A DNA stretch of 64,000 bases from Minisyncoccota bacterium (GCA_035546035.1 DASZXC010000008.1:123951-187950); one strand, 5' to 3'. Positions 35,288 to 57,890 are shown, counted from the stretch's first letter. The notes: a model not told the origin generated them from the letters alone. Translations and numbers: made by a program.

Positions 35288-35320
35288 ACAAAAAAACGGC
35301 CGGATGGCCGTTTTTTTGTT
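35288..35320 (+). terminator. Strong intrinsic terminator immediately after rplB, at the start of the AT-rich insertion
   Basis: aaaaaaacggccggatggccgtttttttg. Confidence 0.8.
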
Positions 35321-36576: not shown

Positions 36577-36591
36577 TATCTATATATTCCC

Positions 36592-36969
36592 ATGGTCACC
36601 GCATCTCTCACTAACTATCGCCAGTCTCCTCGCAAGGTCCGCCTCGTCGCGTCTTTGATCAAGGGCAAGACCGTCGCGCAGGCTCTCGATATGCTCGGCG
36701 TGACCACAAAACGCGCTTCGGATCCATTGGCCAAGCTCATTAATTCGGCAGTCGCTAATGCCAAGAACCTCGGCGTAGCAACAGAGAACCTCTACGTAAA
36801 GGAGTGCACCGTGAACCAGGGCGTCACCATGAACCGCTATATGCCGGGCGCCCGCGGCTCTGCGTTCCCGATCAGGAAGAAGTCGAGCCACGTAAAGCTC
36901 GTCCTCGAGACCAAGGAACCGAAGGCCAAGAAAGCAGCCAAAGCAAAGGCTCCTAAGACAACCAAATAA
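36592..36969 (+). CDS. rplV: 50S ribosomal protein L22
   Basis: uL22 conserved sequence. Confidence 0.93.
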   Translation: MVTASLTNYRQSPRKVRLVASLIKGKTVAQALDMLGVTTKRASDPLAKLINSAVANAKNLGVATENLYVKECTVNQGVTMNRYMPGARGSAFPIRKKSSHVKLVLETKEPKAKKAAKAKAPKTTK

Positions 36970-36974
36970 TTACT

Positions 36975-37667: not shown

Positions 37668-37678
37668 TACAAACTCCC

Positions 37679-38104
37679 ATGCTTGTCCCTAAAAAAGTAA
37701 AGTACAGGAAGTGGCACGTGATGCGCAAGAACCCTTCGAAAGTGGGTATGGAGACCCGCGGCACGTACCTTTCGTTCGGATCGTTCGGCCTCAAGGCTAT
37801 CTCTGCGGCTCGCATCCGATCTGAGCAGATCGAATCGGCCCGCAAGGTCATCTCTCGCGAGATCGGCAAGAACGGCAAGCTCTGGATCCGCATCTTCCCG
37901 GACATGCCGTATACCCAGAAGCCTGCCGAAGTTAAGCTCGGCAAGGGCAAGGGCGATCTCCAGGGCTACTGCGCTCCGGTAAAGCCCGGCCGCGTGCTCT
38001 TCGAAGTGGACGGCATCGACGAAGCTATGGCCCGCGAGGCTCTCCGCAAGGGCGGCACCAAGCTCCCGACCAAGACGGTCATAATCTCCCGCGAGATCGC
38101 GTAA
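37679..38104 (+). CDS. rplP: 50S ribosomal protein L16
   Basis: uL16 conserved sequence. Confidence 0.95.
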   Translation: MLVPKKVKYRKWHVMRKNPSKVGMETRGTYLSFGSFGLKAISAARIRSEQIESARKVISREIGKNGKLWIRIFPDMPYTQKPAEVKLGKGKGDLQGYCAPVKPGRVLFEVDGIDEAMAREALRKGGTKLPTKTVIISREIA

Positions 38105-38125
38105 TACGACGTAACACTTAATACC

Positions 38126-38437
38126 ATGTCTATCTTTAGCAAAAAACCAGCAGCAGAGAAGAAAGCGGACGCCCCGAAATCCGTCGCCTCTTCGACGACC
38201 GCTAAGGCCGGCGAGGGCAAGATCCTTCAGGGTGTCGTCGTCTCCGCAAAGATGAAGGACACTGTCGTCGTCAAAGTAGACCGCTTCGTAAAGGTCCCTA
38301 AATACGAGCGCTTCATGAAGGTTTCGAAGAAGTTCAAGGCTCACGACGCCGGCAACACCAAGAAAGAAGGCGACAAAGTCACCATCGTCGAGTGCGCGCC
38401 TATCTCCAAGGACAAGAATTTCATCGTAGCCGCATAA
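38126..38437 (+). CDS. rpsQ: 30S ribosomal protein S17 (with about 30-aa N-terminal extension)
   Basis: ..KILQGVVVSAKMKDTVVVKVDRFVKVPKYERFMK.. uS17 core. Starts 21 nt after the rplP stop, so there is no rpmC between them. Confidence 0.92.
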   Translation: MSIFSKKPAAEKKADAPKSVASSTTAKAGEGKILQGVVVSAKMKDTVVVKVDRFVKVPKYERFMKVSKKFKAHDAGNTKKEGDKVTIVECAPISKDKNFIVAA

Positions 38438-38454
38438 TCATTTAATCAACTCCC

Positions 38455-38826
38455 ATGCTTCAGCCACGCTCAATAGTCGTAATAGCAGACAACTCCGGCG
38501 CAAAGATAGGCCGCATCTTCAAGGTGCTCGGCTCGGCCGCGAAGCGCTATGCGGAGATCGGCGACGTCGTCGTGCTCTCGGTTCAGAAAGCCGAGCCTCG
38601 CAAGGCCGTCAAAAAGAAGGACGTCCTCCACGCAGTCGTCGTCCGCACCGTAAAGGAAGCGAAGCGCAGGGACGGCTCGTATATCCGCTTCGACGAGAAC
38701 GCGGTCGTCATCCTCGAAAAGGGCAAGAAAGAGCCTCTCGCCGGACGCGTCTTCGGTCCTATCCCTCGCGAGCTCGCGGAGAAGGGCTTCCAGACCATCG
38801 CGTCGCGCGCAGCCGAAATCGTTTAA
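38455..38826 (+). CDS. rplN: 50S ribosomal protein L14
   Basis: uL14 conserved sequence. Confidence 0.95.
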   Translation: MLQPRSIVVIADNSGAKIGRIFKVLGSAAKRYAEIGDVVVLSVQKAEPRKAVKKKDVLHAVVVRTVKEAKRRDGSYIRFDENAVVILEKGKKEPLAGRVFGPIPRELAEKGFQTIASRAAEIV

Positions 38827-38837
38827 TACACACCACC

Positions 38838-39056
38838 ATGCACGTAAAGAAAGGAGACAAAGTGATAGTTTTGGCAGGGAAGGACGCAGGCAAGACCGGC
38901 GAGGTGGTTAAGTCTATGCCTAAGGAGAACAAGGTCATCGTATCTGGCGTCAATAAAATGAAGCGCCACATGAGGCCTCGCAAGCAGGGCGAGAAAGGCC
39001 AGGTCATAGACAAGGAGATGCCCCTCCACGCATCGAACGTCGCAAAGGCGAAGTAA
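38838..39056 (+). CDS. rplX: 50S ribosomal protein L24 (short form, 72 aa)
   Basis: MHVKKGDKVIVLAGKDAGKTGEVV.. KOW motif of uL24. Confidence 0.9.
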   Translation: MHVKKGDKVIVLAGKDAGKTGEVVKSMPKENKVIVSGVNKMKRHMRPRKQGEKGQVIDKEMPLHASNVAKAK

Positions 39057-39075
39057 TTTCAGTAACGACACCATT

Positions 39076-39612
39076 ATGAAAACTCTCAAAGAAAAGCAGG
39101 TCGCCGCATTCGAAGTCATGAAGAAAGACTTCGGCTACAAGAACGCCATGCAGGCTCCGAAGGTACTCAAGGTCGTCGTATCGGCCGGCGTAGGCTCGTT
39201 CAAGGACAAGAAGAAGATCGAACTCGCAGGCGATAGGCTCATGAAGATCACCGGCCAGAAGGCGGTATTGAAGGGCGCCAAGAAGTCCATCGCTTCGTTC
39301 AAATCGCGCGAAGGCGATCCAATGGGCTACCAGGTCACGCTGCGCGGCGTAAAGATGTGGAACTTCCTCGAGAAGCTCGTGCATATCGCGCTCCCTCGAA
39401 CCAAAGACTTCCGCGGCCTTCCTGCGGCTTCGATGGACGGCATGGGCGGCTACTCGATCGGCGTCAAAGAGCACTCGATCTTCCCGGAGACGACCGATGA
39501 AGAGCTCAAGGACGTCTTCGGCCTCGGCGTGACCGTTCTCACGAACGTCCGCAAGAAGGAAGAGACCAAGAAATTCCTCGAACTCCTCGGTTTCCCGATC
39601 AAGAAGGCGTAG
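39076..39612 (+). CDS. rplE: 50S ribosomal protein L5
   Basis: uL5 conserved sequence. Confidence 0.95.
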   Translation: MKTLKEKQVAAFEVMKKDFGYKNAMQAPKVLKVVVSAGVGSFKDKKKIELAGDRLMKITGQKAVLKGAKKSIASFKSREGDPMGYQVTLRGVKMWNFLEKLVHIALPRTKDFRGLPAASMDGMGGYSIGVKEHSIFPETTDEELKDVFGLGVTVLTNVRKKEETKKFLELLGFPIKKA

Positions 39613-39710
39613 TTTGACAGGGCGGTGTCGGTTTGATAGGATGGCTTTACAAAGCTTTTCCCAAGGCTTTTTATTTTTCGCCGGGCATTTTCCCGGCTTT
39701 CCCACAGCAA

Positions 39711-39896
39711 ATGGCAAAAACTTCAGTAGTAGCGCGAGCGAACAAGAAACCTAAGTTCTCTACGAGGGTTGTTCGACGCTGCTTCCGCTGCGGTCGCAAG
39801 AACGGCTTCATGCGCGACTTCGGCGTATGCCGCATCTGCTTCAGGGAGTTGGCTAACGACGGCCTCATCCCAGGCATCAAGAAATCATCCTGGTAG
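39711..39896 (+). CDS. rpsZ: 30S ribosomal protein S14, zinc-binding type Z (61 aa)
   Basis: Start at internal Met of track ORF 39633..39896: MAKTSVVARANKKPKFSTRVVRRCFRCGRKNGFMRDFGVCRICFRE. CxxC...CxxC zinc ribbon. Confidence 0.9.
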   Translation: MAKTSVVARANKKPKFSTRVVRRCFRCGRKNGFMRDFGVCRICFRELANDGLIPGIKKSSW

Positions 39897-39968
39897 ACCA
39901 TTATTAATTTAGGCAGTAGCGATCGGAGGACACTGACAGTTACGACCGAAAGCTATACGCTAAATCAC

Positions 39969-40358
39969 ATGCGAGACCCAATTTCAAACCTCATAACGAA
40001 CCTCAAGAACGGCTCCGCCGCGAAGAAAGACGTCGTGGCCGTCCCTCTTTCCAATTTCACCGAAGCCGTCGTCGCGGCTCTTTCGCGTAAAGGCTATGTA
40101 AAGCCCGGCATCAAGAAGGGTAAGAAGGTCGCGAAGACCCTCGAAGTAGGTCTTATCTATGTCGAGGGTAAGGCTCGCATCACGGACGTGAAGCGCCTCT
40201 CGAAGCCTTCGAAGCGCCTCTACAAGGGCTATTCCGAGATCTTTCCGGTCAAGCAGGGCTATGGCTCGACGTTCGTCTCTACCCCGAAGGGCATCCTCTC
40301 GGATGACGAAGTTCGTAAAGAAAAGGTCGGCGGCGAGATCCTCTTCCAGATCTGGTAA
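39969..40358 (+). CDS. rpsH: 30S ribosomal protein S8
   Basis: uS8 conserved sequence. Confidence 0.95.
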   Translation: MRDPISNLITNLKNGSAAKKDVVAVPLSNFTEAVVAALSRKGYVKPGIKKGKKVAKTLEVGLIYVEGKARITDVKRLSKPSKRLYKGYSEIFPVKQGYGSTFVSTPKGILSDDEVRKEKVGGEILFQIW

Positions 40359-40376
40359 TTTCTCATACAAAATCAC

Positions 40377-40904
40377 ATGTCACGCGTAGCAAAGAAACCA
40401 ATAGCGATACCAGAGAAGACGACCGTAGCCGTTAACGGCCAGACCGTTTCCGTAAAGGGCCCGTTGGGCGAGATGGTCCGCGACTTCAAGCCGGGCATCG
40501 AGTTCAAGGTAGAGAGCAATGCTGTCACCGTCGCTCTCCATCGCCCGGAAGATTATATGCTCTGGGGCACGTATGCATCGCACCTCAAGAACATGATCAA
40601 GGGCGTCAACGCTGGCTTCACCAAGAAGCTCATCATCGAAGGCATCGGCTTCAAGTCCGATGTCAAGGGGGCAAAGCTCGCTCTTTCGCTCGGCTTCTCG
40701 CATCCGATAGACCTCGATATACCGAAGGATCTTAAGGTGACCGCAGATAAGAACGTTATAACCATCACGGGCGTTTCGAACGAGAAGGTCGGCGAATTCG
40801 CTTCGAAGATCCGCGCATTGAAGAAGCCGGAGCCGTATAAGGGCAAGGGCATCCGATATGAGGGCGAGGTCATCCGCAGGAAGCAGGGTAAGAAAGCAGC
40901 GTAA
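40377..40904 (+). CDS. rplF: 50S ribosomal protein L6
   Basis: uL6 conserved sequence. Confidence 0.95.
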   Translation: MSRVAKKPIAIPEKTTVAVNGQTVSVKGPLGEMVRDFKPGIEFKVESNAVTVALHRPEDYMLWGTYASHLKNMIKGVNAGFTKKLIIEGIGFKSDVKGAKLALSLGFSHPIDLDIPKDLKVTADKNVITITGVSNEKVGEFASKIRALKKPEPYKGKGIRYEGEVIRRKQGKKAA

Positions 40905-40921
40905 TCCTTCGTAACAATCCT

Positions 40922-41284
40922 ATGAAACACAACATCAAAAAGGAAAAGAGGATACGACGCCACAAGGCGATCAGGACGCGCCTTTCGGGCACCGCTGAAA
41001 AGCCGCGTCTCGCGGTATTCCGCTCGAACAAGTTCATGTACGCCCAGCTTATAGATGACGCTGCGGCGAAAACGATCGCGTCGGCGACGTCGCATACGGG
41101 CAAGAAGGCGAAAGCCAAGTCCGCAAAGAAGGTAGATGCCGCATTCGCGGTCGGTAAGGCAATAGCCGAAAAGGCGGTCGCTCTCAAGGTGAAGGCGGTC
41201 GTATTCGATCGCGGAGGCTTCGGCTTCAAGGGCCGCGTCGCGGCTCTCGCTGCGGGCGCTCGCGAAGGCGGACTCAAATTCTAA
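40922..41284 (+). CDS. rplR: 50S ribosomal protein L18
   Basis: uL18 conserved sequence. Confidence 0.93.
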   Translation: MKHNIKKEKRIRRHKAIRTRLSGTAEKPRLAVFRSNKFMYAQLIDDAAAKTIASATSHTGKKAKAKSAKKVDAAFAVGKAIAEKAVALKVKAVVFDRGGFGFKGRVAALAAGAREGGLKF

Positions 41285-41295
41285 TAATTAAAAGT

Positions 41296-41946
41296 ATGAA
41301 CCCAGAGAACGAGAACAAGACGACGGCTCCGACTGCAGCTCCTGCTGCGGCCGCTTCGACGACGGCTTCGGCCGCTCCTGCAGAGAACCGCGATCGCGAT
41401 TTCCGCGGATTCCGCGATCAGGCAGGAAGGGGGCAGGGAGGCCGCGGTCGCGGTCCCCGCAAGGGCGACACTCGCGCCCCTCGCGCGAAGCCGGAGTATG
41501 ACTCCGTCATGCTCAATATCCGACGCGTTTCCCGAACCGTCGCCGGCGGACGACGCTTCGCATTCTCGGTCGCTCTCGTCGCAGGCAACAAGAAGGGCAT
41601 GGTGGGCGTCGGCCTCGGAAAGGCGGGCGACACCGCCCTTGCCATAGACAAGGCTACCCGCAACGCCAAGAAGCACATGATCAAGGTCAATACGACCAAG
41701 GACATGTCCATACCTCACGAAGTCTCGTCGAAATACTCGTCGGCCCGCGTCTCGATCCGCCCTGTGAAAGACCGCGGCCTCGTCGCGGGTTCGGCGGTCC
41801 GAACGGTCCTCGAGCTCGCCGGCGTCAAGAACGTCGCCGCGAAGATCGTCTCTCCTTCGAAGAACAAGCTCAACATCGCCCGCGCCACGATCGACGCCCT
41901 CGAGAGCCTTAACCTCGTCCGACCGGTCGGCTCCAAAAAGGCTTAA
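41296..41946 (+). CDS. rpsE: 30S ribosomal protein S5 (with about 60-aa Ala/Arg/Gly-rich N-terminal extension)
   Basis: uS5 core ..RRVSRTVAGGRRF.F.VA.VAGNKKGMVGVGLGKA... C-terminal domain. Confidence 0.93.
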   Translation: MNPENENKTTAPTAAPAAAASTTASAAPAENRDRDFRGFRDQAGRGQGGRGRGPRKGDTRAPRAKPEYDSVMLNIRRVSRTVAGGRRFAFSVALVAGNKKGMVGVGLGKAGDTALAIDKATRNAKKHMIKVNTTKDMSIPHEVSSKYSSARVSIRPVKDRGLVAGSAVRTVLELAGVKNVAAKIVSPSKNKLNIARATIDALESLNLVRPVGSKKA

Positions 41947-41958
41947 TACACAAATCAT

Positions 41959-42417
41959 ATGCAGCTTAACAACATCAGCAGGAAGACCCCGAACGCAAAG
42001 ACGCCCCTCATCGGTCGCGGCGGCAAGCGCGGCAAGACCTCGGGACGCGGCACCAAAGGCCAGAAGGCCCGTGCCGGCAACAAAAAGCGTCCGGAGATCC
42101 GCGATTTCATCAAGCGAATGCCGAAGCTTCGCGGCTATGCGTTCAAGTCGTTCGCGAAGAAACCCGTTCTCGTCGCTCTTTCGGCCGTCGAAAGGGAATT
42201 CAAGGCGGGTGATCGCGTCGAGCCGGCTACGCTCGTAGCCAAGGGTCTCGTTCAGAAGACGGAAGGCAACTTTCCTCGCATCAAGCTCCTCACGTCCAAG
42301 GCTTCGACCAAGCAGGGCGCGGTAGAGATCACCAAGAAACTCGTCGTTTCGGGCGTCGAAGTGTCCGCGGGCGCGAAAGTGGCCCTTGAAAAGGCGGGCG
42401 GTACGGTGCATGCTTAA
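41959..42417 (+). CDS. rplO: 50S ribosomal protein L15
   Basis: uL15 conserved sequence. Follows rpsE directly, so there is no rpmD (L30) between them. Confidence 0.93.
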   Translation: MQLNNISRKTPNAKTPLIGRGGKRGKTSGRGTKGQKARAGNKKRPEIRDFIKRMPKLRGYAFKSFAKKPVLVALSAVEREFKAGDRVEPATLVAKGLVQKTEGNFPRIKLLTSKASTKQGAVEITKKLVVSGVEVSAGAKVALEKAGGTVHA

Positions 42418-42439
42418 AAGGACGGGTTAGACCCCTCAT

Positions 42440-43711
42440 ATGAACGCTTTTTTCGAAAAAATCTCTCACGTCTTCAGGGATAAGAACTTGCGCAAGCGCA
42501 TCCTCTTCGTCGTCGGCGCGCTCGTCATATTCCGTCTCCTTACCATGATCCCGATCCCGGGCATCGATACGGCGAAATTGGCGTCCCTTTTCGCGAACAG
42601 CCAGTTCCTCGGCCTTCTCAACATATTCTCGGGCGGCGGCCTTTCGAACCTGTCGATCGTCATGCTCGGCGTCGGTCCGTACATCACGGCGTCTATCATC
42701 ATGCAGCTCCTCACCATCATGGTGCCCTCGCTCAAGGCCATGTATCAGGAGGAAGGCGAAGCCGGCCGCGCGAAGTTCGCGCAGTACTCGCGCCGACTCG
42801 CATTGCCGTTGGCTCTCATCCAGGCATTCTCTTTCATCGTCATATTCCAGCGACAGGGCATCATCGCCGACCTCACGGTATTCAGCCTCCTTCTGAACAT
42901 CTTCACCATCGCCGGCGGCTCGATGCTCCTTATGTGGCTCGGCGAGCTCATCACTGAATTCGGATTGGGCAACGGCACGTCGCTCATCATATTCGCCGGC
43001 ATCGTCGCGCGGATCCCGCAGGGCATTTCGGGCGCGCTCGCATCGTATGATCCGTCCCAGCTTCCGGTATATATCGCTATCGTCGCTCTCGCGGCCGTCA
43101 TCATATACGGCGTCGTCGTCGTCACCGAGGCGGAGCGACCGATCCCGGTCACATATGCCAAGCAAGTCCGCGGCATGAAAGTCTACGGCGGTGTTTCGAC
43201 ATACCTCCCGTTGCGCCTCAATCAGGCAGGCGTCATTCCTATCATATTCGCGCTCTCGATACTCTTGTTCCCGCAGATGCTCTTCAATTTCTTTGCCGTC
43301 TCGACGAACGAGGCCTTGAAGCACGTCTCGACCGTGGGACTTTCCCTCATCAACACGCCGTGGCTCTATGACTCGTTCTACTTCATCCTTGTCTTCGTCT
43401 TCACGTACTTCTATACGGCGGTGACGTTCGATCCGATGATGATATCGGAGAACCTCCAGAAGTCAGGCGCATTCATCCCGGGCGTCCGCCCCGGCCAGTC
43501 CACGGCCGAATACCTTTCCAAGATCGTCACGCGCATCACTCTTGTGGGCGCCCTGTTCCTCGGCATCATCGCGGTATTGCCGCTCGTTCTCAGGACCATT
43601 TCGGGCATCACGACTCTTGCTATCGGCGGCACCGCGCTTCTCATCGTGGTCTCTGTGGTGCTGGATGTGGTCAAGAAGCTGGATGCGCAAGTATCCATGC
43701 GAGAGTATTAA
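42440..43711 (+). CDS. secY: Preprotein translocase subunit SecY
   Basis: 10-TM protein, 423 aa, with conserved SecY motifs (..GGSMLLMWLGE.I.E.G.GNG.S.II..). Confidence 0.95.
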   Translation: MNAFFEKISHVFRDKNLRKRILFVVGALVIFRLLTMIPIPGIDTAKLASLFANSQFLGLLNIFSGGGLSNLSIVMLGVGPYITASIIMQLLTIMVPSLKAMYQEEGEAGRAKFAQYSRRLALPLALIQAFSFIVIFQRQGIIADLTVFSLLLNIFTIAGGSMLLMWLGELITEFGLGNGTSLIIFAGIVARIPQGISGALASYDPSQLPVYIAIVALAAVIIYGVVVVTEAERPIPVTYAKQVRGMKVYGGVSTYLPLRLNQAGVIPIIFALSILLFPQMLFNFFAVSTNEALKHVSTVGLSLINTPWLYDSFYFILVFVFTYFYTAVTFDPMMISENLQKSGAFIPGVRPGQSTAEYLSKIVTRITLVGALFLGIIAVLPLVLRTISGITTLAIGGTALLIVVSVVLDVVKKLDAQVSMREY

Positions 43712-43715
43712 TCCT

Positions 43716-43745
43716 TAAAAATCCCGCTCCGGCGGGATTTTTTAT
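43716..43745 (+). terminator. Intrinsic terminator after secY
   Basis: aaaaatcccgctccggcgggatttttt. Confidence 0.8.
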
Positions 43746-43772
43746 TTCCTGAAAGTCCTATAAAATAGAAGC

Positions 43773-44384
43773 ATGAAACATCCCATCACGGTGGTCTTCT
43801 TCGGCAAGTCGGGCGCGGGCAAGGGCACGCAGGCGACGCTTCTCCTTAAAAGCTTCGAAAGGCTGGACGCCGCCCGCCCGACCATATACGTGGAGACTGG
43901 CCAGAAATTTAGGAACTTCGTGAGCACGAGCCCGTCATACATGGCGAAAAGGATATATGAGGTCATCCATGCCGGAAAATTCCTCCCCCCGTTTATTCCT
44001 ATCTGGATGTGGACGCAGTTCTTCGTGGACGAGATCAAGACGGGCGAAGAGCATATGGTATTCGACGGCGTCTGTCGCCAGCCGGAAGAAGGGCCGATCC
44101 TCGACTCGGCGCTTCAATTCCTGGGCCGCATAAAGCCGGTCGTTATCTTGCTCGACGTCCATCATGACGAAGTCACCAAGCGCCTTCTGAAGCGCGGTCG
44201 TCACGACGACACCCATGAGAAGATCGCATCGCGCCTTGCCGCATTCGAAAAAGAGGGAATGCCGTCCGTCACTTATTTCAAAACCAGCCCGCACGTGAAA
44301 TTCGTGACCGTGAACGGCGACCAGCCCATAGAAAAGGTTCACGAAGACGTACTCGCCGCGATCGGGATCGAAGGTAGACTATAA
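43773..44384 (+). CDS. adk: Adenylate kinase
   Basis: P-loop GKSGAGKGTQA and the LID/NMP organisation. 203 aa. Confidence 0.88.
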   Translation: MKHPITVVFFGKSGAGKGTQATLLLKSFERLDAARPTIYVETGQKFRNFVSTSPSYMAKRIYEVIHAGKFLPPFIPIWMWTQFFVDEIKTGEEHMVFDGVCRQPEEGPILDSALQFLGRIKPVVILLDVHHDEVTKRLLKRGRHDDTHEKIASRLAAFEKEGMPSVTYFKTSPHVKFVTVNGDQPIEKVHEDVLAAIGIEGRL

Positions 44385-44403
44385 GCCCGTCACAGGGTAG
44401 TCT

Positions 44404-45180
44404 GTGGTCATGGCCATACGGCTCAAATCCAAGGAAGACATAGCCATCATGCGCGAAGGCGGCAAGCGCCACGCTTTCATATTAAAAGAGCTCGCCGGCA
44501 TGGTCGCTCCCGGCGTCTCTGCGCAGGCGCTCGACGATAGGGCGGCGGAATTGATAGCTGAAGGCGGCGACGCAGCGGCGTTTCTGAACTACAAGCCCTA
44601 TGGTGCCAAGCGCCCGTTTCCGGCAAGCCTCTGCGTGTCCGTAAATGACGCGGTCGTTCACGGCATACCGAACGAACGGCCGTATATCATCAAAGAGGGC
44701 GATATCGTATCGCTCGACCTCGGCCTCGTCCATAAGGGTTTCATCACCGATATGGCCGTGACCGTCCCTGCAGGAGAGATAGACAAAGGAGCGGCGGCGC
44801 TTTTGAAAGCGACGAAAAAGGCGCTCGAGCTCGGCGTGAAACAGGCCAAAGCAGGGAATACCACGGGACATATCGGCGAAGCCGTCGAATCGTTCATCGC
44901 GTCTCTCGGCTATGGCATCGTCGAAGAGCTCGCGGGCCACGGCGTCGGATATGAGGTCCACGAAGACCCGTACGTTCCGAATTACGGAACCGCGGGCGAC
45001 GGCGAAGCTCTCGTTCCCGGCATGGTCATAGCCATCGAGCCTATCGTCACCGAAGGATCGGGCAGGATCTTTTTGGATAAGGACGGATACACCTACCGCA
45101 CCAAAGACGGCAAGCGCAGCGCACATTTCGAAGTGACCGTCGCCATCACCGAAAAGGGAGCGGAGGTGCTGACAAAATAA
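44404..45180 (+). CDS. map: Type I methionine aminopeptidase
   Basis: Pita-bread fold metal ligands D..D..H..E..E pattern. ..VSVNDAVVHGIP.. motif. Confidence 0.9.
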   Translation: MVMAIRLKSKEDIAIMREGGKRHAFILKELAGMVAPGVSAQALDDRAAELIAEGGDAAAFLNYKPYGAKRPFPASLCVSVNDAVVHGIPNERPYIIKEGDIVSLDLGLVHKGFITDMAVTVPAGEIDKGAAALLKATKKALELGVKQAKAGNTTGHIGEAVESFIASLGYGIVEELAGHGVGYEVHEDPYVPNYGTAGDGEALVPGMVIAIEPIVTEGSGRIFLDKDGYTYRTKDGKRSAHFEVTVAITEKGAEVLTK

Positions 45181-45210
45181 TCCCACTGCTTCGGCACGCG
45201 ATAGGGTATA

Positions 45211-45774
45211 ATGTCGGGCATGCAACACCCGAAAAAAGAACGCACGCTCGTCATCGTGAAGCCTGACGGCATCCAGAGAAGCCTGGTCGGAGAGATCATC
45301 GGCAGGTTCGAGCGCATCGGATTGAAGATCGTCGCTGCAAAAATGACGGTCGCGACGCCTGAACATATCGAGGCGCACTACACCTTGGATTCGAACTGGC
45401 GCCGCGTCACAGGCGAGAAGACCATCAAAGCCTATACCGACAAAGGCCAGAAACATCCGGTCAGCCAGGATCCTATCGAAGTCACGGACGTCATACTGAA
45501 AAAGCTCAAAAAATACATGACGAGCGGGCCGATCATCCCGATGGTGCTCGAAGGCGCCCATTCCGTCGCCATCGTCAGGAAATTGATAGGCTCTACCGAG
45601 CCGCTCTCGTCCGATGTCGGCACCATTCGCGGCGATTTCGTCCTCGATTCCTATGCCATGAGCTACGCCGACGACCGATCGGTGCGAAATCTCGTCCATG
45701 CATCGGGTTCGGTAGGGGAAGCGGAGCAGGAGATCAAGCACTGGTTCAAGCCGGAAGAGATTCTCTACGGCTAG
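45211..45774 (+). CDS. ndk: Nucleoside diphosphate kinase (with about 40-aa internal insertion)
   Basis: ERTLVIVKPDGIQRSLVGEIIGRFE..., ..MTSGPIIPMVLEG.., ..NLVHASGSVGEAEQEI..W (active-site His). An insertion sits between the first helix hairpin and the Kpn loop region. Confidence 0.85.
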   Translation: MSGMQHPKKERTLVIVKPDGIQRSLVGEIIGRFERIGLKIVAAKMTVATPEHIEAHYTLDSNWRRVTGEKTIKAYTDKGQKHPVSQDPIEVTDVILKKLKKYMTSGPIIPMVLEGAHSVAIVRKLIGSTEPLSSDVGTIRGDFVLDSYAMSYADDRSVRNLVHASGSVGEAEQEIKHWFKPEEILYG

Positions 45775-46006
45775 AAACTTTTTCGACCGCCGGTCGTATT
45801 CATTTACTCTTTCCTTTTTTCGTTTTGCAGGCTTTGTCCCCACTTGTACCTCGGAGAAGGGAGATTATAATGAAATGGGTTATTCGAAAGATTAACTCTA
45901 TAACATTTTTTTAGGGAAATAGCGCATTGAGTCCGATCTTGGTCGGACGTTACGCTTCCCACCTAGTGCAAACTAGGGACAATCTTCCGAATGACCCCCA
46001 GAGAAC

Positions 46007-46818: not shown

Positions 46819-47211
46819 ATGTTCTGGAACCGATTCCTCTTTCCGATGCTCGCCGCGCTGGTCGCCGTTGCCGGCCTGAACTGGATAGGCGGGGCCGAAG
46901 GCTATTATTTTACGACCGCATGGTACGATTGGCCCGTACATTTTTTGGGCGGCGTCTGGTCCGGGCTCTTTCTGCTCTGGATATTCAATCTCCCGCATAT
47001 GGGTCGCTTCAAGCGGTTCGCTTCGCTCGAAGCCGTATTGGGCCTCGTATTCCTCATCGGCCTCGCATGGGAGGGATATGAGCTTTTCTTCGGCCTGACG
47101 AGCCTCTACAAAGCGGGATACGGCTTCGATACGTTCCATGACCTCGTGAACGACGTTCTCGGCGCGGCCGCGGCGTTCTGCCTTACCCGCCGAACTATCG
47201 CTCGCGCATAA
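46819..47211 (+). CDS. Small integral membrane protein (about 4 TM), hypothetical
   Basis: 130 aa, hydrophobic helices, aromatic-rich (WYDWPVHFLGGVWSGLFLLWIF). Confidence 0.45.
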   Translation: MFWNRFLFPMLAALVAVAGLNWIGGAEGYYFTTAWYDWPVHFLGGVWSGLFLLWIFNLPHMGRFKRFASLEAVLGLVFLIGLAWEGYELFFGLTSLYKAGYGFDTFHDLVNDVLGAAAAFCLTRRTIARA

Positions 47212-48590
47212 TGAAAGGATTCACGCTCACAGCATGTGCGGCGGTGGGGAATGCCACAGGGGCGAACTTCCTCGTAGAGACCCCGGAGACGTCGTTCCTC
47301 GTCGACTGCGGCCTGGTCCAGGGATCGCAGTTCGCTCAAGATGAAAATCGAGAACCCTTTCCTTTCGATATTCCCAAGGTATCGTTCCTCCTCGTGACCC
47401 ATGCGCATATGGATCATGTCGGCAGGATACCGAAGCTGGTCCGCGAAGGATTCAGCGGGACCATATATTCGACGCCGGAAACGAAAGAGCTTGCCGCGCT
47501 CATGCTCGACGACGCGGTAGGGCTCTTGGACAGGGAAGCGAAAGAAAAGAAGATCGCGCCTCTGTACGAGCGCTCCGATATCGCCCGCGCCATGGGCCTC
47601 TGGAAGGCGATCGAATACCATGCGCAGACGGACATAACGCCGGATATCTCTGCGCTCTTCAAGGACGCCGGGCACGTCCTCGGCTCCTCTATCATCGAAG
47701 TGACGCTCCGCAATGCCGCCGGCGACAAGGGCGTTACGATCGCGTTCACAGGCGACCTCGGCAATTCGCCGACGCCGCTCCTGCGCGACACGGAATATGT
47801 CACGAACGCCGATTACTTGGTCATGGAATCGGTCTACGGCGACAGGAACCACGAGCCGAAGGATGTCCGCGACCAAAGGCTCAAAGACATACTCGGCGCA
47901 GGCCTCCGGCGCGGCGGGACGGTGGTCATTCCCGCGTTCTCGCTGGAGCGGACGCAGGTCATTCTGTACGAGATCAATAACCTGATCGAATCAGGAGCTA
48001 TTCCGCGCGCTCCGGTATATCTTGATTCTCCTTTGGCCATAAAAGTGACGGACGTATACCGCAGGCATACGGCGGATTTCAATAAGAAGATACAGGGCGC
48101 TATCGAAGGAGGCGACGATATATTCGATTTTCCCGGCCTGCGCATCATCGGGAATCCGCAGGAATCCGCGGCGATCCACGGTATGAAAGGGGCCAAGATC
48201 GTCATCGCCGGTTCCGGTATGTCGGTCGGCGGCCGCGTCCTGTCGCATGAAGCGTTCTATCTTGGAGACCCGGACGCTACGATACTGCTCGTCGGCTATC
48301 AGGTGCCGGGCAGCCTCGGCAGGAAGATAGAGGAGCGCGCGTCGAAGCTCGTCATCAATGGCCAGCCGGTGCGCGTGCGCGCTCGTATAGAGAAGATCAG
48401 TGGCTATTCTTCGCACAAAGATTCGAACGGCATGGTCGAATTCGTGTCGCATGCGTTGCCGAGATTGAAGAGGGCGTTCATCGCCATGGGAGAGACTAAA
48501 TCTTCCGCCTTCCTGGCCCAGCGCCTTCGCGATGAGATCGGGGCGAATGCGATAGTGGCGGAGAAGAATAAGTCGTACGAACTAAAATAA
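47211..48590 (+). CDS. Beta-CASP family metallo-beta-lactamase ribonuclease (RNase J/CPSF-like)
   Basis: MBL motif LVTHAHMDHVGRIP (HxHxDH), downstream ..DAGH.LGSS.. and ..H..H, then beta-CASP and C-terminal RNA-metabolising MBL segments. 459 aa. Confidence 0.75.
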   Translation: MKGFTLTACAAVGNATGANFLVETPETSFLVDCGLVQGSQFAQDENREPFPFDIPKVSFLLVTHAHMDHVGRIPKLVREGFSGTIYSTPETKELAALMLDDAVGLLDREAKEKKIAPLYERSDIARAMGLWKAIEYHAQTDITPDISALFKDAGHVLGSSIIEVTLRNAAGDKGVTIAFTGDLGNSPTPLLRDTEYVTNADYLVMESVYGDRNHEPKDVRDQRLKDILGAGLRRGGTVVIPAFSLERTQVILYEINNLIESGAIPRAPVYLDSPLAIKVTDVYRRHTADFNKKIQGAIEGGDDIFDFPGLRIIGNPQESAAIHGMKGAKIVIAGSGMSVGGRVLSHEAFYLGDPDATILLVGYQVPGSLGRKIEERASKLVINGQPVRVRARIEKISGYSSHKDSNGMVEFVSHALPRLKRAFIAMGETKSSAFLAQRLRDEIGANAIVAEKNKSYELK

Positions 48591-54414: not shown

Positions 54415-54419
54415 ATTTG

Positions 54420-54819
54420 TGGAGATGCCGAGAGTCGAACTCGGGTGCAGAAAGATGTTCCAGTTGCTTCTACGCGACCTAGCGGTCTTTTGCCAGTGAG
54501 GCTTTAAGCGGGCGCACTATAAAGATTCGCGAAACGTGCGGACGCCGATCTTCGCGGGCCGAAGCCCTTCGATAAGGAGCGAAGAGTCTCCGTATCTATC
54601 CTGGATCTATAACACCGGGTCCTGCCGCGCCAGGAATGCGAGCGGGCCGATGTCGTTTAGGCGGGGCTTATTAAGCAGCCGCGTAAGCGAATGAAAACGT
54701 GTTCGTCGCGAAAGGCGATTTTACAGATTTTGCATTTGATGGGCGGAAAGTTTAGAGAGGTATCCTGCTCTATCGCGCGCAAAGGGAAGCTGTCCCTCTG
54801 TCTATGCCTGTCATCCCCA
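54420..54819 (-). ncRNA. ssrA: tmRNA (SsrA)
   Basis: Minus-strand 5' end GGGGAUGACAGGCAU... pairs with 3' end ...GGUUCGACUCUCGGCAUCUCC-A (T-arm-like GUUCGA, 7-bp acceptor stem with G3:U70). Immediately downstream of smpB. Internal frame GCG ACG AAC ACG UUU UCA UUC GCU UAC GCG GCU GCU UAA UAA (about 54669-54710) is a candidate tag ORF. Confidence 0.8.
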
Positions 54820-55266
54820 TTATTCTTGTCCTTTCAATGTTCTCCTGATGTCCCGGTCGGTCTCGCGCTTTTGGATCGAAGCCCGTTTGTCGAACTTCTT
54901 CTTGCCGCGGACGACTGCAATAGCTACCTTGAGCTTTGTTCCTTTATTATACACCCGAATTGGCACTATTGTCAAGCCCTTCTTGGCTTCCATATCAGCC
55001 AATTGGCGTATTTCGGCCTTGGTCATGATCAGTCGGCGCATGCGCATCGGGTCATAATCTGCCGGAGTGTTCGTCGGCTGATAGGGAGCGATTGACATCT
55101 GCAGTATATACGCCTCTCCGCCGCGTATAGTTACATAGGCGCCGTCGAGCACGGCGCCGTGCGTGCGCAAGGACTTCGCTTCGAGGCCGAGCAATTCGAT
55201 GCCGGCCTCGTATTCATCGAGGATCTCGTAGTCGAAGAAGGCTTTTTTGTTTTCCGCGAGGGCCAT
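54820..55266 (-). CDS. smpB: SsrA-binding protein SmpB
   Basis: ..NKKAFFDYEILD..EAGIELLGLEAKS.R...., basic C-terminal tail. 148 aa. Confidence 0.92.
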   Translation of the reverse strand: MALAENKKAFFDYEILDEYEAGIELLGLEAKSLRTHGAVLDGAYVTIRGGEAYILQMSIAPYQPTNTPADYDPMRMRRLIMTKAEIRQLADMEAKKGLTIVPIRVYNKGTKLKVAIAVVRGKKKFDKRASIQKRETDRDIRRTLKGQE

Positions 55267-55337: not shown

Positions 55338-57260
55338 ATGGCAATGCAATTTCAAAAGAATCCTAAGAACAAGAATAGGAAAGATATCCCTCGGCAGAGC
55401 ATGATGCGATTCCTCGGCAGCTTCGGTTCCGGGCTTCTCATATTCTTTTTCCTCATCGCGCTCTATTCGCTGCTTTCCGGAGGAGGCGATGCGGGGACGG
55501 CGATATCGCTGTCCGAGCTTTCTAACGACGTGAGCAAGGGCGCAGTCAAGGTCATACAGATAGACGGCACCGACCTGACCGCGACGTATAACGACGGCAC
55601 GACCAAGACGACGAAGAAAGAGGCCGACAGCCCTCTAACGACGACCCTTACTAATTATGGGGTCACGCCTCAAAAGATCTCTGCCGTTGATATACAGATA
55701 AAAGAGCCGTCAGGATTTTCGTACTGGTTCATCGCATTGGCGCCGTTCATCGTGCCTCTCATATTCATCGGCTTCCTCGTATGGCTTCTGACGCGGCAGG
55801 TCCGGGGAGCGGGCATGCAGGCGTTCTCGTTCGGCCAGTCGAAGGCGCGGATAACCCATCCTGACGACAAGAAATCGAAAGTGACGTTCAAGGACGTCGC
55901 GGGCGCGAAGGAAGCGAAGCAGGAGTTGATGGAGATCGTGGACTTCCTCCGCAATCCGAAGAAATTCCTTGACCTGGGCGCGGTGATACCGAAGGGCATT
56001 CTCTTGATGGGCGCGCCGGGCACGGGCAAGACCCTGTTGGCGCGCGCGGTCGCGGGCGAGGCAGGCGTGGCGTTCTTCTCTATATCAGGCTCCGAATTCG
56101 TCGAGATGTTCGTGGGCGTGGGCGCTTCGCGGGTGCGCGACCTGTTCAAGATGGCGAAATCGGCGGCGCCGGCCATCATATTCGTGGACGAGATCGACGC
56201 GGTGGGACGAAGCCGCGGCGTCGGCATGGGCGGCGGCAACGACGAGAGGGAGCAGACCTTGAACCAGATACTCGTCGAAATGGACGGCTTCGAGCCGAAC
56301 GAGAAAGTGATCGTCATGGCGGCGACCAACAGGCCTGACGTTCTGGACCCTGCGCTTTTGAGGCCGGGCCGATTCGACCGACGCGTCACCATAGATGTGC
56401 CTGATCGCAATGATCGCGAGGAGATCCTAAAGATACACGCGCGCAAGAAGCCGTTCGCGGAAGACGTCAATCTGAAGGTGATCGCGGAGCGCACGCCGGG
56501 CTTCTCGGGCGCCGATCTGTATTCGCTCATGAACGAAGGAGCGATCCTGGCCGCGCGCGAGAACCGTACCAAGGTCTCGCAATACGACCTGATCCGCGCT
56601 ATCGAAAAGGTCATGCTCGGCCCTGAACGCAAAAGCCATATATTGTCGCAGGAGGAGAAAAAGATCACTGCGTATCACGAAGCCGGCCATGCCGTCGTTT
56701 CTTCCACGCTCGATTATGCCGATCCGGTCCATAAGATATCGATCGTCTCGCGCGGGCGGGCTGCGGGATATGTCCTCCATCTGCCGCTCGAGGACAGGAA
56801 GCTTCAATCCAAGAAAGAATTCCTCGACGACATCGCCGTGTCGCTCGGCGGATATGTCGCCGAGCGTCTGATGTTCGCGGATCTCACGACCGGCCCGTCG
56901 AATGACCTGCAGGTCTCGACCGCACTGGCTCGCGATATGGTGACCAAATACGGTATGTCCGCGACGCTCGGTCCCGTGGCATTGGAAGGCGCCGGCGGCC
57001 GCGTATTGTTCGGCCGCGGCGTCGAAGAAGGAGAATATTCGGAAAAAGTAGCGTCTGAAATAGACGCTGAAGTGAAAGCCATCATGACCGAGGGCATGAG
57101 CCGCGCCGAAAAGACCATCAAGACGAACAAAAAATTGCTCGACGCCATCGCCAAGCGATTGATGGAAGTCGAGACGATAGAGCGGGATGAATTCGAAAAG
57201 CTCCTCGTTGCTCACGGCGTTACCCCGAAGAAGAAAAAGGACATAGAGCACCAGCCATAA
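55338..57260 (+). CDS. ftsH: ATP-dependent zinc metalloprotease FtsH
   Basis: N-terminal TMs. Walker [18 protein letters not shown] zinc site. 640 aa. Confidence 0.96.
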
Positions 57261-57290
57261 AAAAAGAGCCGCTCCGAAGGAGCGGCTCTT
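57259..57290. terminator. Bidirectional terminator between ftsH and the minus-strand hypothetical gene
   Basis: aaaaaagagccgctccgaaggagcggctctt. Confidence 0.7.
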
Positions 57291-57291
57291 G

Positions 57292-57690
57292 CTATGAGCG
57301 CGCGGTCGCGCGCTTTCCCAAAAGCTCTTGGAAGAGTCCGGAGAATTCAATCCGGATCGCATGGCTCGGAATCTCCGCGAGCGGGATGACGCTCGCTCCC
57401 GATCCCAGCTCCTTTCTCTTGCCCCGAAAGGCGAAAGAATAGAAACTGCAGGCGCAGTCTTTGCCCTCGAACCAGAACTGCTCCAGAGTCTCGATCACGG
57501 GCTCCATGCGAGAGAGCGACACGTCCTCGAAATAGGGTCGGAGCAGGCCGTTGAGGAAGATGTCATGCGAATGGGCGCCGTTTATGCCGTAGGGCAGGGT
57601 GAGCCTGCCTTGCCACGGAAGAAGGACGAGCTTGCCGTCCTCCGTGAGCGGGGCGAACACGTAAAGTGCCGGTTTTATATTGAAGATCAT
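57292..57690 (-). CDS. Hypothetical protein
   Basis: 132-aa ORF, no recognisable motif. Confidence 0.4.
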   Translation of the reverse strand: MIFNIKPALYVFAPLTEDGKLVLLPWQGRLTLPYGINGAHSHDIFLNGLLRPYFEDVSLSRMEPVIETLEQFWFEGKDCACSFYSFAFRGKRKELGSGASVIPLAEIPSHAIRIEFSGLFQELLGKRATARS

Positions 57691-57796
57691 GGTACCTCCT
57701 CGCTCTATTATAAGCCCATGCCCGATATTTGTATCCTCACCCGGTCTGGTTTAGTATAACGGAGCCTCTTATATTATATAGAGCCTGCCGCATCTT

Positions 57797-57872
57797 GCGC
57801 CTATAGCTCAGTTGGTTAGAGCATCGAGCTTATACCTCGAGGGTCCTTGGTTCGAATCCAAGTAGGCGCACC
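57797..57872 (+). tRNA. tRNA-Ile with anticodon UAU (reads AUA)
   Basis: Manual fold of gcgccta-ta-gctc-agttggtta-gagc-a-tcgag-ctTATac-ctcga-gggtc-cttgg-ttcgaat-ccaag-taggcgc-a-cc. All four stems pair (acceptor 7 bp). T-loop TTCGAAT. Anticodon loop c-t-TAT-a-c. CCA not encoded. Confidence 0.8.
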
Positions 57873-57890
57873 GGGTCGTAGCTGATATTA

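What the first reader, a model, noticed from the sequence alone, without database searches (positions are those of the whole stretch)
57797..57872. tRNA-Ile with genomically encoded UAU anticodon
Manual folding gives a canonical cloverleaf whose anticodon loop is cuUAUac. Most bacteria decode AUA with a CAU-anticodon tRNA modified to lysidine by TilS. A UAU tRNA-Ile is the rare alternative (established for e.g. Mycoplasma mobile and a few other lineages). It usually coincides with loss of tilS and with changes in IleRS.
Basis: partly seen in the sequence, partly recalled or inferred. Interest (0 to 1): 0.5.

Follow-up and report, generated by a model that had tools for sequence, protein, structure and literature searches.

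The report
Genuine UAU-anticodon isoleucine tRNA gene
This is a real, conserved isoleucine tRNA with a UAU anticodon in an uncultivated, small-genome CPR (Patescibacteria) bacterium; it most likely reads the AUA codon directly, without the lysidine modification most bacteria need.

Summary
ARAGORN calls tRNA-Ile(tat) at exactly 57797-57872 (+), and Rfam's tRNA model scores 74.7 bits (E 1.6e-14). The anticodon loop is CUUAUAC.

The window comes from a Candidatus Paceibacterota (CPR/Patescibacteria) genome assembled from a metagenome. Its FtsH is GenBank HVU06607.1.

- **Conservation.** The same tRNA family was found in 43 stretches of related DNA, including 39 GTDB species genomes. It lies next to ftsH in 38 of these. 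All 441 base-pair cells form standard pairs, and six pairs show compensating double changes.
- **Meaning of AUA.** ATA codons in conserved genes align to E. coli Ile/Val/Leu exactly as ATC codons do, so AUA means isoleucine.
- **Use of AUA.** ATA is used at 18 per 1000 codons at 56% GC. That is 3.6 times ATT, and about four times the rate in control contigs of similar GC that carry a CAU tRNA.
- **tilS.** Neither tilS, ileS nor a tRNA-Ile(CAU) gene could be searched for in the rest of this genome. None lies in about 448 kb of related DNA held here. A published table finds the TilS family in only 123 of 2321 CPR genomes, and MnmG in 5.

Best reading: this is a lysidine-independent AUA decoder of the Mycoplasma mobile type. 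It is a new member of a known kind, in a large lineage where I found it undiscussed.

The parts
57797..57870 (+). tRNA-Ile(UAU), G1 to discriminator A73. Acceptor stem GCGCCUA/UAGGCGC, D arm, anticodon arm UCGAG-CUUAUAC-CUCGA, variable loop GGGUC, T arm CUUGG-UUCGAAU-CCAAG.
   Evidence: ARAGORN. Rfam tRNA model 74.7 bits. Covariation over 43 related sequences.
57831..57833 (+). Anticodon TAT (U34 A35 U36), inside the loop C32-U33-U34-A35-U36-A37-C38 at 57829-57835.
   Evidence: Sequence read. ARAGORN puts the anticodon at position 35. The loop is identical in four relatives found through FtsH rather than through the tRNA.
57871..57873 (+). The bases after A73 are CCG, so the CCA end is not fully encoded and must be completed after transcription (inference).
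   Evidence: Sequence. Most family members likewise lack an encoded CCA.
57750..57796 (+). AT-rich upstream region with -10-like boxes: TAGTAT at 57752-57757, then TATATT/TTATAT around 57770-57780. Candidate own promoter (inferred, not shown).
   Evidence: A GGTTTAGTAT motif is shared with close relatives. TATAGT/TATGAT boxes lie 7-25 nt upstream in many family members, and many have a hairpin-plus-T terminator just downstream. The strict sigma-70 scan found no site upstream of the tRNA in the window.
55338..57260 (+). ftsH, the conserved neighbour of the tRNA. In this lineage it is preceded by smpB and tmRNA, not by tilS-hpt.
   Evidence: Pfam Peptidase_M41 + AAA. 100% identical to HVU06607.1. 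ftsH lies beside the tRNA in 38 of 43 related stretches.
57264..57290 (-). 12-bp GC-rich hairpin followed by a T run, lying between the end of ftsH and the tRNA region. Terminator-like.

Best explanation
The locus is a functional, vertically inherited gene for an isoleucine tRNA with a genomically encoded UAU anticodon, in a Paceibacteria (CPR/Patescibacteria) chromosome. It decodes the AUA codon by a direct U34-A pair.

This takes the place of the usual bacterial route, in which a CAU-anticodon tRNA is converted by TilS to a lysidine (LAU) anticodon.

**Shown here**
- The gene and its cloverleaf.
- Its conservation, with compensating changes, across the lineage.
- That AUA means isoleucine in this organism.
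- That AUA is used unusually often for the GC content.

**Inferred**
- The tRNA is transcribed from its own promoter, and its CCA end is completed after transcription.
- A37 is modified to t6A. The TsaD family is common in CPR.
- U34 carries no xm5 modification. MnmG is almost absent from CPR.
- AUA is therefore read strongly and AUG only weakly, as measured for unmodified U34 in M. mobile and in the B. subtilis tilS-deletion suppressor.
- The genome has no tilS and no tRNA-Ile(CAU).
- Its IleRS accepts U34. E. coli IleRS does not.
For: **The tRNA is real**
- ARAGORN and Rfam agree on the gene, and the anticodon loop reads CUUAUAC.

**It is conserved and under selection**
- Relatives were found through FtsH, independently of the tRNA. 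All four carry tRNA-Ile(tat) just past ftsH.
- A family pattern found 39 GTDB species genomes, all Patescibacteria-type assemblies. ARAGORN calls every one tRNA-Ile(tat).
- Of 43 sequences, 21 are distinct. All 441 pair cells are standard pairs.
- Six of the seven pairs the pattern left free show double changes. 0 of 500 shuffles reach the covariation score.
- ftsH is adjacent in 38 of 43 stretches, with FtsH identity of 57-89%.
- The family pattern has no match in viral contigs.

**AUA means Ile**
- 60 ATA codons in conserved genes align to E. coli I 23, V 17, L 6, M 5.
- ATC gives the same profile (I 109 of 290). ATG does not (M 53 of 161).

**AUA is heavily used**
- In 37 verified genes, ATA is 18.1 per 1000 codons, ATT 4.9 and ATC 50.8.
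- At GC 0.50-0.62, family DNA has a median of 16.4 ATA per 1000. Contigs carrying a CAU tRNA have 4.0 (Mann-Whitney p = 1.3e-6).

**Ile-type body**
- It has G3-C70, C4-G69, C5-G68, U12-A23, A37 and A73.
- G3/C70 mark Ile rather than Met (PMC1635315).

**TilS**
- No PP-loop motif and no TilS or IleRS match lies in the window or in about 448 kb of related DNA.
- The TilS family is present in 123 of 2321 CPR genomes against 866 of 1198 other bacteria.
- For MnmG the counts are 5 against 897, for TadA 158 against 873, and for TsaD 1942 against 995 (PMC6744442 Table S2).

**Unmodified U34 works**
- It reads AUA but binds AUG only weakly in M. mobile and in B. subtilis lacking tilS.
Against: - The rest of this genome could not be read. 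The absence of tilS and of tRNA-Ile(CAU) is inferred, not shown.
- The published CPR counts are for CPR as a whole, not for this lineage. They rest on protein clustering of incomplete genomes.
- Some bacteria carry both systems: L. casei, Cyanothece and Ferrimonas.
- IleRS was not seen. E. coli-type IleRS charges a UAU tRNA at about 1% efficiency.
- A38 and C29-G41, which are identity elements in E. coli as I recall, are replaced by C38 and a variable 29-41 pair.
- ATA is avoided in translation genes, at 6.2 per 1000, so this tRNA is not a major species.
- The codon-usage controls are a convenience sample of unknown taxa, with crude ORF calling.
- The modification state of U34 and A37 is unknown.
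Confidence: 0.8

Rival explanations
1. Redundant decoder. The genome also has tilS and a tRNA-Ile2(CAU), and the UAU tRNA merely supplements lysidine-dependent AUA reading, as proposed for Lactobacillus casei, Cyanothece and Ferrimonas.
For: Such double systems exist (PMC3575796). 123 CPR genomes do carry the TilS family. Only 64 kb of this genome, on a 380 kb contig, was visible.
Against: TilS is present in about 5% of CPR genomes against about 72% of other bacteria. No tilS lies beside ftsH, a position where Mycoplasma genomes have it, in any of 38 related stretches. ATA is used about four times more often than in CAU-tRNA contigs of similar GC.
Confidence: 0.13
2. Non-functional or mispredicted tRNA: a pseudogene, or a chance cloverleaf.
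For: The bare-sequence minimum-energy fold is not the cloverleaf. CCA is not encoded.
Against: The Rfam score is 74.7 bits. All base pairs are kept through compensating changes in 21 distinct sequences. The gene keeps its place beside ftsH down to 57% FtsH identity. Promoter-like boxes and terminators flank family members.
Confidence: 0.02
3. A tRNA of another identity: AUA reassigned (for example to Met), or a Met/Lys-type body carrying a UAU anticodon.
For: The D arm is identical to that of E. coli elongator tRNA-Met, and overall identity to tRNA-Met (80%) is no lower than to the E. coli tRNA-Ile species.
Against: ATA codons align to Ile/Val/Leu just as ATC does, and unlike ATG. G3-C70 is an anti-Met, pro-Ile feature. 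With position 34 forced to be anything but T, the same backbone in metagenomes carries CAT with Ile2-type acceptor stems, or GAT.
Confidence: 0.02
4. A recently acquired tRNA carried by a phage or other mobile element.
For: Two relatives carry partial copies of the tRNA just upstream of the intact gene.
Against: The family pattern has no match in viral contigs. The neighbours are housekeeping genes (ftsH, smpB, tmRNA, efflux pump). GC content is flat across the region. The position is conserved in 38 of 43 related stretches.
Confidence: 0.02

Closest known systems
Mycoplasma mobile tRNA-Ile2(UAU) (Silva 2006, PMC1635315; Taniguchi 2013, PMC3575796)
   Same: A bacterial, genomically encoded UAU anticodon that reads AUA as Ile. 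The organism has a reduced genome. The tilS position beside ftsH is empty. AUA is used freely.
   Different: In M. mobile, the loss of tilS and of tRNA-Ile(CAU), the unmodified U34, the Arg865 change in IleRS and the discrimination by the ribosome were all shown by experiment. Here none of these could be tested. The host is a 56% GC CPR bacterium, not an AT-rich mollicute, and the tRNA is shared by a broad lineage rather than one species.
Bacillus subtilis tilS-deletion suppressor tRNA1-Ile(G34U) (Fabret 2011, cited; Kohrer 2013, PMC3919564)
   Same: A UAU Ile tRNA suffices for AUA decoding without lysidine. Unmodified U34 binds AUA strongly and AUG weakly.
   Different: It is a laboratory mutant derived from tRNA-Ile(GAU). 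The present gene is natural, ancient and conserved. Whether it arose from a GAU or a CAU ancestor is unresolved.
Bifidobacterium and Neorickettsia tRNA-Ile(UAU) with a eukaryote-type IleRS (tRNAscan-SE 2.0 lists 17 such bacterial genomes)
   Same: Natural bacterial lineages that use UAU instead of CAU plus TilS.
   Different: Their adaptation is a eukaryote-type IleRS. The IleRS type of this lineage is unknown.
Lactobacillus casei, Cyanothece and Ferrimonas: tRNA-Ile(TAT) together with tilS
   Same: A bacterial UAU Ile tRNA gene.
   Different: There both systems coexist. Here that is the minority rival, made less likely by the depletion of TilS in CPR.
Canonical bacterial tRNA-Ile2(CAU) modified to lysidine by TilS
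   Same: The same job of reading AUA only. The body is similar: G3-C70, C4-G69, C5-G68, A73, and the same D and T arms as many metagenomic CAT tRNAs.
   Different: Position 34 is T in the gene, so no lysidine is possible. Position 38 is C, not A.
Archaeal (Nanoarchaeum equitans, Korarchaeum cryptofilum) and eukaryotic tRNA-Ile(UAU)
   Same: A UAU anticodon reading AUA. In the archaea it replaces a modified CAU tRNA.
   Different: Different domains of life. As I recall, the eukaryotic tRNA carries pseudouridine at positions 34 and 36. Nothing is known here about modification.

Membership tests
Bacterial tRNA-Ile(UAU) AUA decoder (M. mobile type) | Canonical cloverleaf tRNA gene with anticodon TAT in a 7-nt loop, with U33 and a purine at 37 | tested here: met
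   The loop is CUUAUAC.
Bacterial tRNA-Ile(UAU) AUA decoder (M. mobile type) | AUA codons are present in genes and mean isoleucine | tested here: met
   ATA codons align to E. coli I/V/L as ATC does. ATA is 18.1 per 1000 codons in 37 verified genes.
Bacterial tRNA-Ile(UAU) AUA decoder (M. mobile type) | Isoleucine-type tRNA body (identity elements for IleRS) | tested here: inconclusive
   Present: A35, U36, A37, A73, C4-G69, U12-A23, and G3-C70, which is pro-Ile and anti-Met. Absent or variable: A38 is C38, and 29-41 is G-C here and varies in relatives. The E. coli element list is from my own recall (Nureki 1994), and determinants differ between phyla.
Bacterial tRNA-Ile(UAU) AUA decoder (M. 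mobile type) | The gene is under purifying selection and inherited vertically, not a pseudogene | tested here: met
   43 sequences, 100% of cells paired, six pairs with double changes. Adjacent to ftsH in 38 of 43 stretches.
Bacterial tRNA-Ile(UAU) AUA decoder (M. mobile type) | No tilS and no tRNA-Ile2(CAU) in the same genome | not testable with these tools
   Only 64 kb of the genome could be read, and the window's proteins are not on record in the contig index. Indirect evidence: none in about 448 kb of related DNA, and the TilS family in 123 of 2321 CPR genomes.
Bacterial tRNA-Ile(UAU) AUA decoder (M. mobile type) | IleRS adapted to U34: Arg or Lys in place of E. coli Trp905, or a eukaryote-type IleRS | not testable with these tools
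   No ileS lies in the window or in the related DNA held.
Bacterial tRNA-Ile(UAU) AUA decoder (M. mobile type) | U34 unmodified, or modified so that AUG is not read | not testable with these tools
   This needs RNA mass spectrometry. Indirect evidence: the MnmG family is in 5 of 2321 CPR genomes.
tRNA-Ile2(CAU)/lysidine system | CAT anticodon in the gene, the substrate of TilS | tested here: not met
   Position 34 is T, at window position 57831.
Elongator tRNA-Met | CAT anticodon and a C3-G70 pair | tested here: not met
   The anticodon is TAT and the pair is G3-C70. ATA codons do not behave like ATG.
Phage- or mobile-element-borne tRNA | Sits among phage or integrase genes, patchy distribution, matches on viral contigs | tested here: not met
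   Housekeeping neighbours, conserved position, and no viral match for the family pattern.

The most novel reading that the evidence does not exclude
A whole branch of the Candidate Phyla Radiation, at least this Paceibacteria lineage and possibly much of the radiation, has replaced the 'near-universal' TilS/lysidine system with a genomically encoded tRNA-Ile(UAU). Its U34 would lack an xm5 modification, because MnmG is also missing.

On this reading, lysidine-independent AUA decoding is the norm for a sizeable part of bacterial diversity rather than a curiosity of about 17 genomes. The retained high AUA usage in GC-rich members would be its genomic footprint. It would also require IleRS, and perhaps the ribosome, to have adapted to U34.
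Probability: 0.5. Interest if true: 0.6.

Novelty: new member of a known kind. Interest (0 to 1): 0.45.

Why it matters
Reviews and recent papers still call bacterial tRNA-Ile(UAU) a rare exception and treat TilS as essential. The figures quoted are about 98% of annotated genomes carrying tilS and 17 bacterial genomes with the UAU tRNA; a 2026 preprint says 'rare cases'.

This finding places the UAU solution in a broad lineage of uncultivated CPR bacteria. It ties in with the CPR-wide depletion of three enzymes that modify the first anticodon position: TilS, TadA and MnmG. That suggests a simplified decoding scheme that depends little on modification.

It also gives three concrete, testable predictions:
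- no tilS and no tRNA-Ile2 in these genomes;
- an altered residue in IleRS at the position that contacts base 34;
- an excess of AUA codons for the GC content.

It matters for annotation too, because TilS (TIGR02432) is, as I recall, one of the GTDB bac120 marker genes.

Tried and rejected
- **Looking up the window's own contig.** Exact look-ups of its FtsH and SmpB were not on record, so the window could not be extended.
- **Direct search for tilS and ileS.** The PP-loop motif SGGxDS was absent from all six reading frames of the window and of the related DNA. tblastn with E. coli TilS and IleRS against about 448 kb gave nothing. This says little about the whole genome.
- **An hpt seed to reach tilS through tilS-hpt linkage.** The candidate gene in L124 turned out to be ComF. 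Abandoned.
- **A CPR TilS or IleRS seed for homologue searches.** I did not run these. The tool lists only the best 120 hits, so an E. coli, Aquifex or Geobacillus query would return only its own relatives.
- **Metagenome scan for the same backbone with a non-T base at position 34.** Because the pattern had to start with plain bases, I dropped the 5' acceptor strand. It shows the body is Ile-type. It did not settle whether the UAU tRNA came from a CAU or a GAU ancestor.
- **L212.** It carries a 16S 3' end followed by a tRNA-Ile(GAU) with the same GCGC acceptor start and C38. I could not place it taxonomically.
- **Sequence identity to E. coli and B. subtilis tRNAs.** Rejected as evidence.
- **Strict promoter scan.** It found no site upstream of the tRNA.
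- **Thermodynamic folding alone.** It does not give the cloverleaf.
- **Literature.** No paper in the library holds 'lysidine' together with 'Patescibacteria' or 'candidate phyla radiation'. 'TilS' with 'Parcubacteria' returned only irrelevant papers.

Full report
**1. The observation**

ARAGORN reports two RNA genes in the 64 kb window. One is a tmRNA at 54419-54818 (-).

Rfam's tRNA model matches 57797-57870 over its full length at 74.7 bits, against a gathering score of 29, with E 1.6e-14.

Read from the sequence, the anticodon loop is C32-U33-U34-A35-U36-A37-C38 at 57829-57835. The acceptor stem is GCGCCUA/UAGGCGC and the discriminator is A73. The following bases are CCG, so CCA is not fully encoded.

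The minimum-energy fold of the bare sequence is not the cloverleaf: -28.3 against -25.8 kcal/mol. The comparative data below support the cloverleaf.

**2. Organism and surroundings**

The upstream gene is ftsH, at 55338-57260. Its product is 100% identical to GenBank HVU06607.1, named 'MAG TPA: Candidatus Paceibacterota bacterium', on a 380,287-bp contig. The next 119 FtsH hits are Paceibacterota, Taylorbacteria, Parcubacteria or Patescibacteria assemblies, or carry no name.

The window is an ordinary piece of CPR chromosome. It holds:
- type IV pilus genes;
- tpiA, pgk, recJ, rnhA and a split comEC;
- the str/S10/spc ribosomal-protein operon, from rpsL to map, at 26251-45180;
- tmRNA with smpB, then ftsH and the tRNA;
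- an HlyD/AcrB-type efflux pair.

GC content is flat at 54-59%. Nothing resembling a phage or integrase lies near the tRNA.

**3. Conservation**

I fetched relatives through FtsH, independently of the tRNA. There were four contigs, with 86%, 84%, 81% and 75% FtsH identity. All have the order tmRNA-smpB-ftsH, and all carry a tRNA-Ile(tat) just beyond ftsH. In one of them the tRNA is inverted. Their anticodon loops are identical, while the anticodon and acceptor stems differ by compensating changes.

A pattern built from these sequences left seven base pairs free. It found 39 species-representative genomes in the GTDB collection. All are Patescibacteria-type assemblies, and ARAGORN calls every one tRNA-Ile(tat).

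Over 43 sequences, 21 of them distinct:
- all 441 pair cells are standard pairs;
- six of the seven free pairs show changes on both sides;
- no shuffle out of 500 reaches the observed covariation score;
- sliding the partners destroys the pairing.

The invariance of the anticodon among the 39 pattern hits is by construction. Among the four FtsH-derived relatives it is not.

ftsH lies beside the tRNA in 38 of the 43 stretches, at 57-89% identity to the window's FtsH. Local GC content of these stretches ranges from 34% to 61%.

The family pattern has no match in viral contigs. Many members have a TATAGT- or TATGAT-like box 7-25 nt upstream and a hairpin-plus-T terminator downstream.

This is an old, vertically inherited gene under selection.

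**4. What AUA means and how much it is used**

I aligned 27 conserved window genes to their E. coli orthologues. The 60 ATA codons fall opposite I (23), V (17), L (6) and M (5). That is the profile of ATC (I 109, V 70, L 50 of 290), not of ATG (M 53 of 161). AUA is therefore isoleucine, and no change of genetic code is involved.

In 37 genes verified by family matches:

| Codon | Per 1000 codons | Share of Ile codons |
|---|---|---|
| ATA | 18.1 | 24.5% |
| ATT | 4.9 | 6.7% |
| ATC | 50.8 | 68.8% |

A published scale calls more than 10 per 1000 'high', and E. coli is at 4.9. ATA is rarer in translation genes (6.2 per 1000) than in the other verified genes (23.0), so it remains a non-preferred codon.

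Across the lineage, stretches with GC 0.50-0.62 have a median of 16.4 ATA per 1000. Metagenome contigs of the same GC range that carry a CAU tRNA of similar backbone have 4.0 (Mann-Whitney p = 1.3e-6). In GC-rich family members ATA exceeds ATT; in nearly all controls of similar GC the order is reversed.

There are two caveats. The controls are a convenience sample of unknown taxa, and genes were called crudely as longest ORFs.

**5. tilS, tRNA-Ile(CAU) and IleRS**

These could not be tested in this genome.

What can be said:
- No PP-loop motif and no similarity to E. coli TilS or IleRS occurs in the window or in about 448 kb of related DNA.
- The slot beside ftsH, where Mycoplasma genomes keep tilS, holds smpB/tmRNA upstream and the UAU tRNA downstream in this lineage.
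- Table S2 of Meheust et al. 2019 (PMC6744442) gives these counts, out of 2321 CPR genomes and 1198 other bacteria:

| Family | CPR genomes | Other bacteria | Flag in the table |
|---|---|---|---|
| TilS (K04075, PF01171) | 123 | 866 | depleted |
| MnmG | 5 | 897 | depleted |
| TadA | 158 | 873 | depleted |
| TsaD (t6A37) | 1942 | 995 | equally distributed |
| MnmA | 1495 | 948 | equally distributed |
| family containing IleRS | 2302 | 1182 | equally distributed |

Independently, CPR genomes appear to lack tRNA-Arg(ACG).

On this basis I put the absence of tilS from this genome at roughly 85-90%. This is an inference, not an observation.

**6. Most likely mechanism**

The tRNA is probably transcribed from its own promoter, trimmed, and given its CCA end. 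A37, which follows U36, is probably modified to t6A. The lineage's IleRS then charges it with isoleucine. E. coli IleRS accepts a UAU tRNA at only about 1% efficiency, so this IleRS must tolerate U34.

U34 pairs directly with the A of AUA. Without MnmG there is no xm5U modification, which would favour reading G. Unmodified U34 binds AUA strongly and AUG weakly in both M. mobile and the B. subtilis tilS-deletion suppressor.

Shown: the gene, its fold, its conservation, the meaning of AUA and its usage. Inferred: processing, modification state, IleRS adaptation, absence of TilS, and discrimination against AUG.

**7. Identity and origin of the tRNA body**

G3-C70 marks tRNA-Ile rather than Met or fMet, and C4-G69 and C5-G68 are frequent in tRNA-Ile(CAT) (PMC1635315). 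The tRNA has all three, together with U12-A23, A37 and A73. It differs from the E. coli element set, as I recall it, at C38 and at the 29-41 pair.

I searched metagenomes for the same D and T arms with position 34 forced to be anything but T. Of the 120 hits, 117 were CAT tRNAs, nearly all with Ile2-type acceptor stems (mostly GGGCC, with A73), and 3 were GAT tRNAs. One GAT tRNA, in L212, lies after a 16S 3' end and shares the GCGC acceptor start and C38.

The body is thus Ile-type. Whether it arose from a CAU or a GAU ancestor is open.

**8. Comparison with what is known, and novelty**

The closest known case is M. mobile tRNA-Ile2(UAU). Others are Bifidobacterium and Neorickettsia, the B. 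subtilis suppressor, and the double-system bacteria. The membership table lists which defining features were met and which could not be tested.

tRNAscan-SE 2.0 listed 17 bacterial genomes with UAU in place of CAU, and named no CPR organism among them. A 2026 preprint still says 'rare cases'. No paper in the searchable library combines 'lysidine' with 'Patescibacteria' or 'candidate phyla radiation'.

I therefore class this as a new member of a known kind. Its interest is that it marks a whole lineage, perhaps much of the CPR, rather than a single genome.

**9. Limits**

- Everything about TilS, IleRS and modifications is indirect.
- The family pattern was strict, so 39 species is a lower bound for this tRNA family and says nothing about other CPR classes.
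- The codon-usage controls are crude.

Noticed in passing
window 54417-54818 (-) and 54820-55266 (-): A tmRNA with tag peptide AKSVKSPFATNTFSFAYAAA lies directly beside smpB and faces away from ftsH. The order tmRNA-smpB-ftsH-tRNA-Ile(UAU) is conserved in the lineage, and the tags vary (for example ...FSFAYAIA, ...FAFAYARA).
   Followed up: partly
window-wide; verified genes listed: ATA (18.1 per 1000) exceeds ATT (4.9 per 1000) by 3.6-fold at 56% GC, although CTA is very rare (19, against 193 CTT). The Ile box has its own codon-usage signature. It is shared by GC-rich relatives and absent from contigs carrying a CAU tRNA.
   Followed up: yes
window 32500-34359 (-), 41281-42411 (-), 44482-45843 (-): Long ORFs of 376-619 aa lie antisense to the ribosomal-protein, adk and map genes. 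They match no family and overlap verified + strand genes, so they are almost certainly spurious.
   Followed up: partly
window 57292-57690 (-): A 132-aa ORF lies between ftsH and the tRNA and matches no family. A same-sized ORF sits at the same place in L121, but the two show no detectable similarity (E 1.9), although FtsH is 86% identical. It is either a very fast-evolving gene or not a gene.
   Followed up: partly
window 21166-22638 (+) and 23260-24153 (+): ComEC is split into a competence-domain ORF and a separate metallo-beta-lactamase-domain ORF. This agrees with the published remark that the fused form is almost absent from CPR.
   Followed up: no
window 2017-8394 and 9755-14195 (+): A type IV pilus cluster (PilB-like ATPase, PilC-like platform protein, small pilin-sized ORFs) is preceded by four large proteins of 407-518 aa that match no NCBIfam family.
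   Followed up: no
window 47211-48590 (+): A beta-CASP/metallo-beta-lactamase ribonuclease. Its best NCBIfam match is the 'type VII CRISPR Cas14' model, at 361 bits, far below that model's cutoff of 800. It is probably an ordinary RNase J/CPSF-like enzyme.
   Followed up: no
L164 about 6725-6790 and L127 (upstream of the tRNA on the - strand): Two relatives carry a degenerate partial copy of the 5' half of the tRNA, about 25-35 nt upstream of the intact gene. In L164 it reads ...CCCCTAGCTCAGTTGGTTAGAGCATCGAGCTTTAAGCC.... It could be a remnant of a duplication or of an insertion or excision event.
   Followed up: no
L212 1416-1489 (-) and 1851-2475 (-): A 35% GC metagenome contig has a 16S rRNA 3' end followed about 360 nt later by a tRNA-Ile(GAU). 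That tRNA shares the GCGC acceptor start, C38 and the D and T arms with the UAU tRNA. No tRNA-Ala or 23S rRNA follows. It may be the major Ile tRNA of a related CPR organism.
   Followed up: partly
P0002 (FtsH homologue, 1076 aa): One close relative's FtsH carries intein and LAGLIDADG homing-endonuclease domains.
   Followed up: no
L123 12594-12669 (-): In the Taylorbacteria assembly GCA_016215405.1 the tRNA is inverted relative to ftsH. It is on the same strand as ftsH in the window, L121, L124 and L125.
   Followed up: no
tRNAs with a UAU anticodon are therefore common on viral contigs, unlike in bacterial chromosomes.
   Followed up: no
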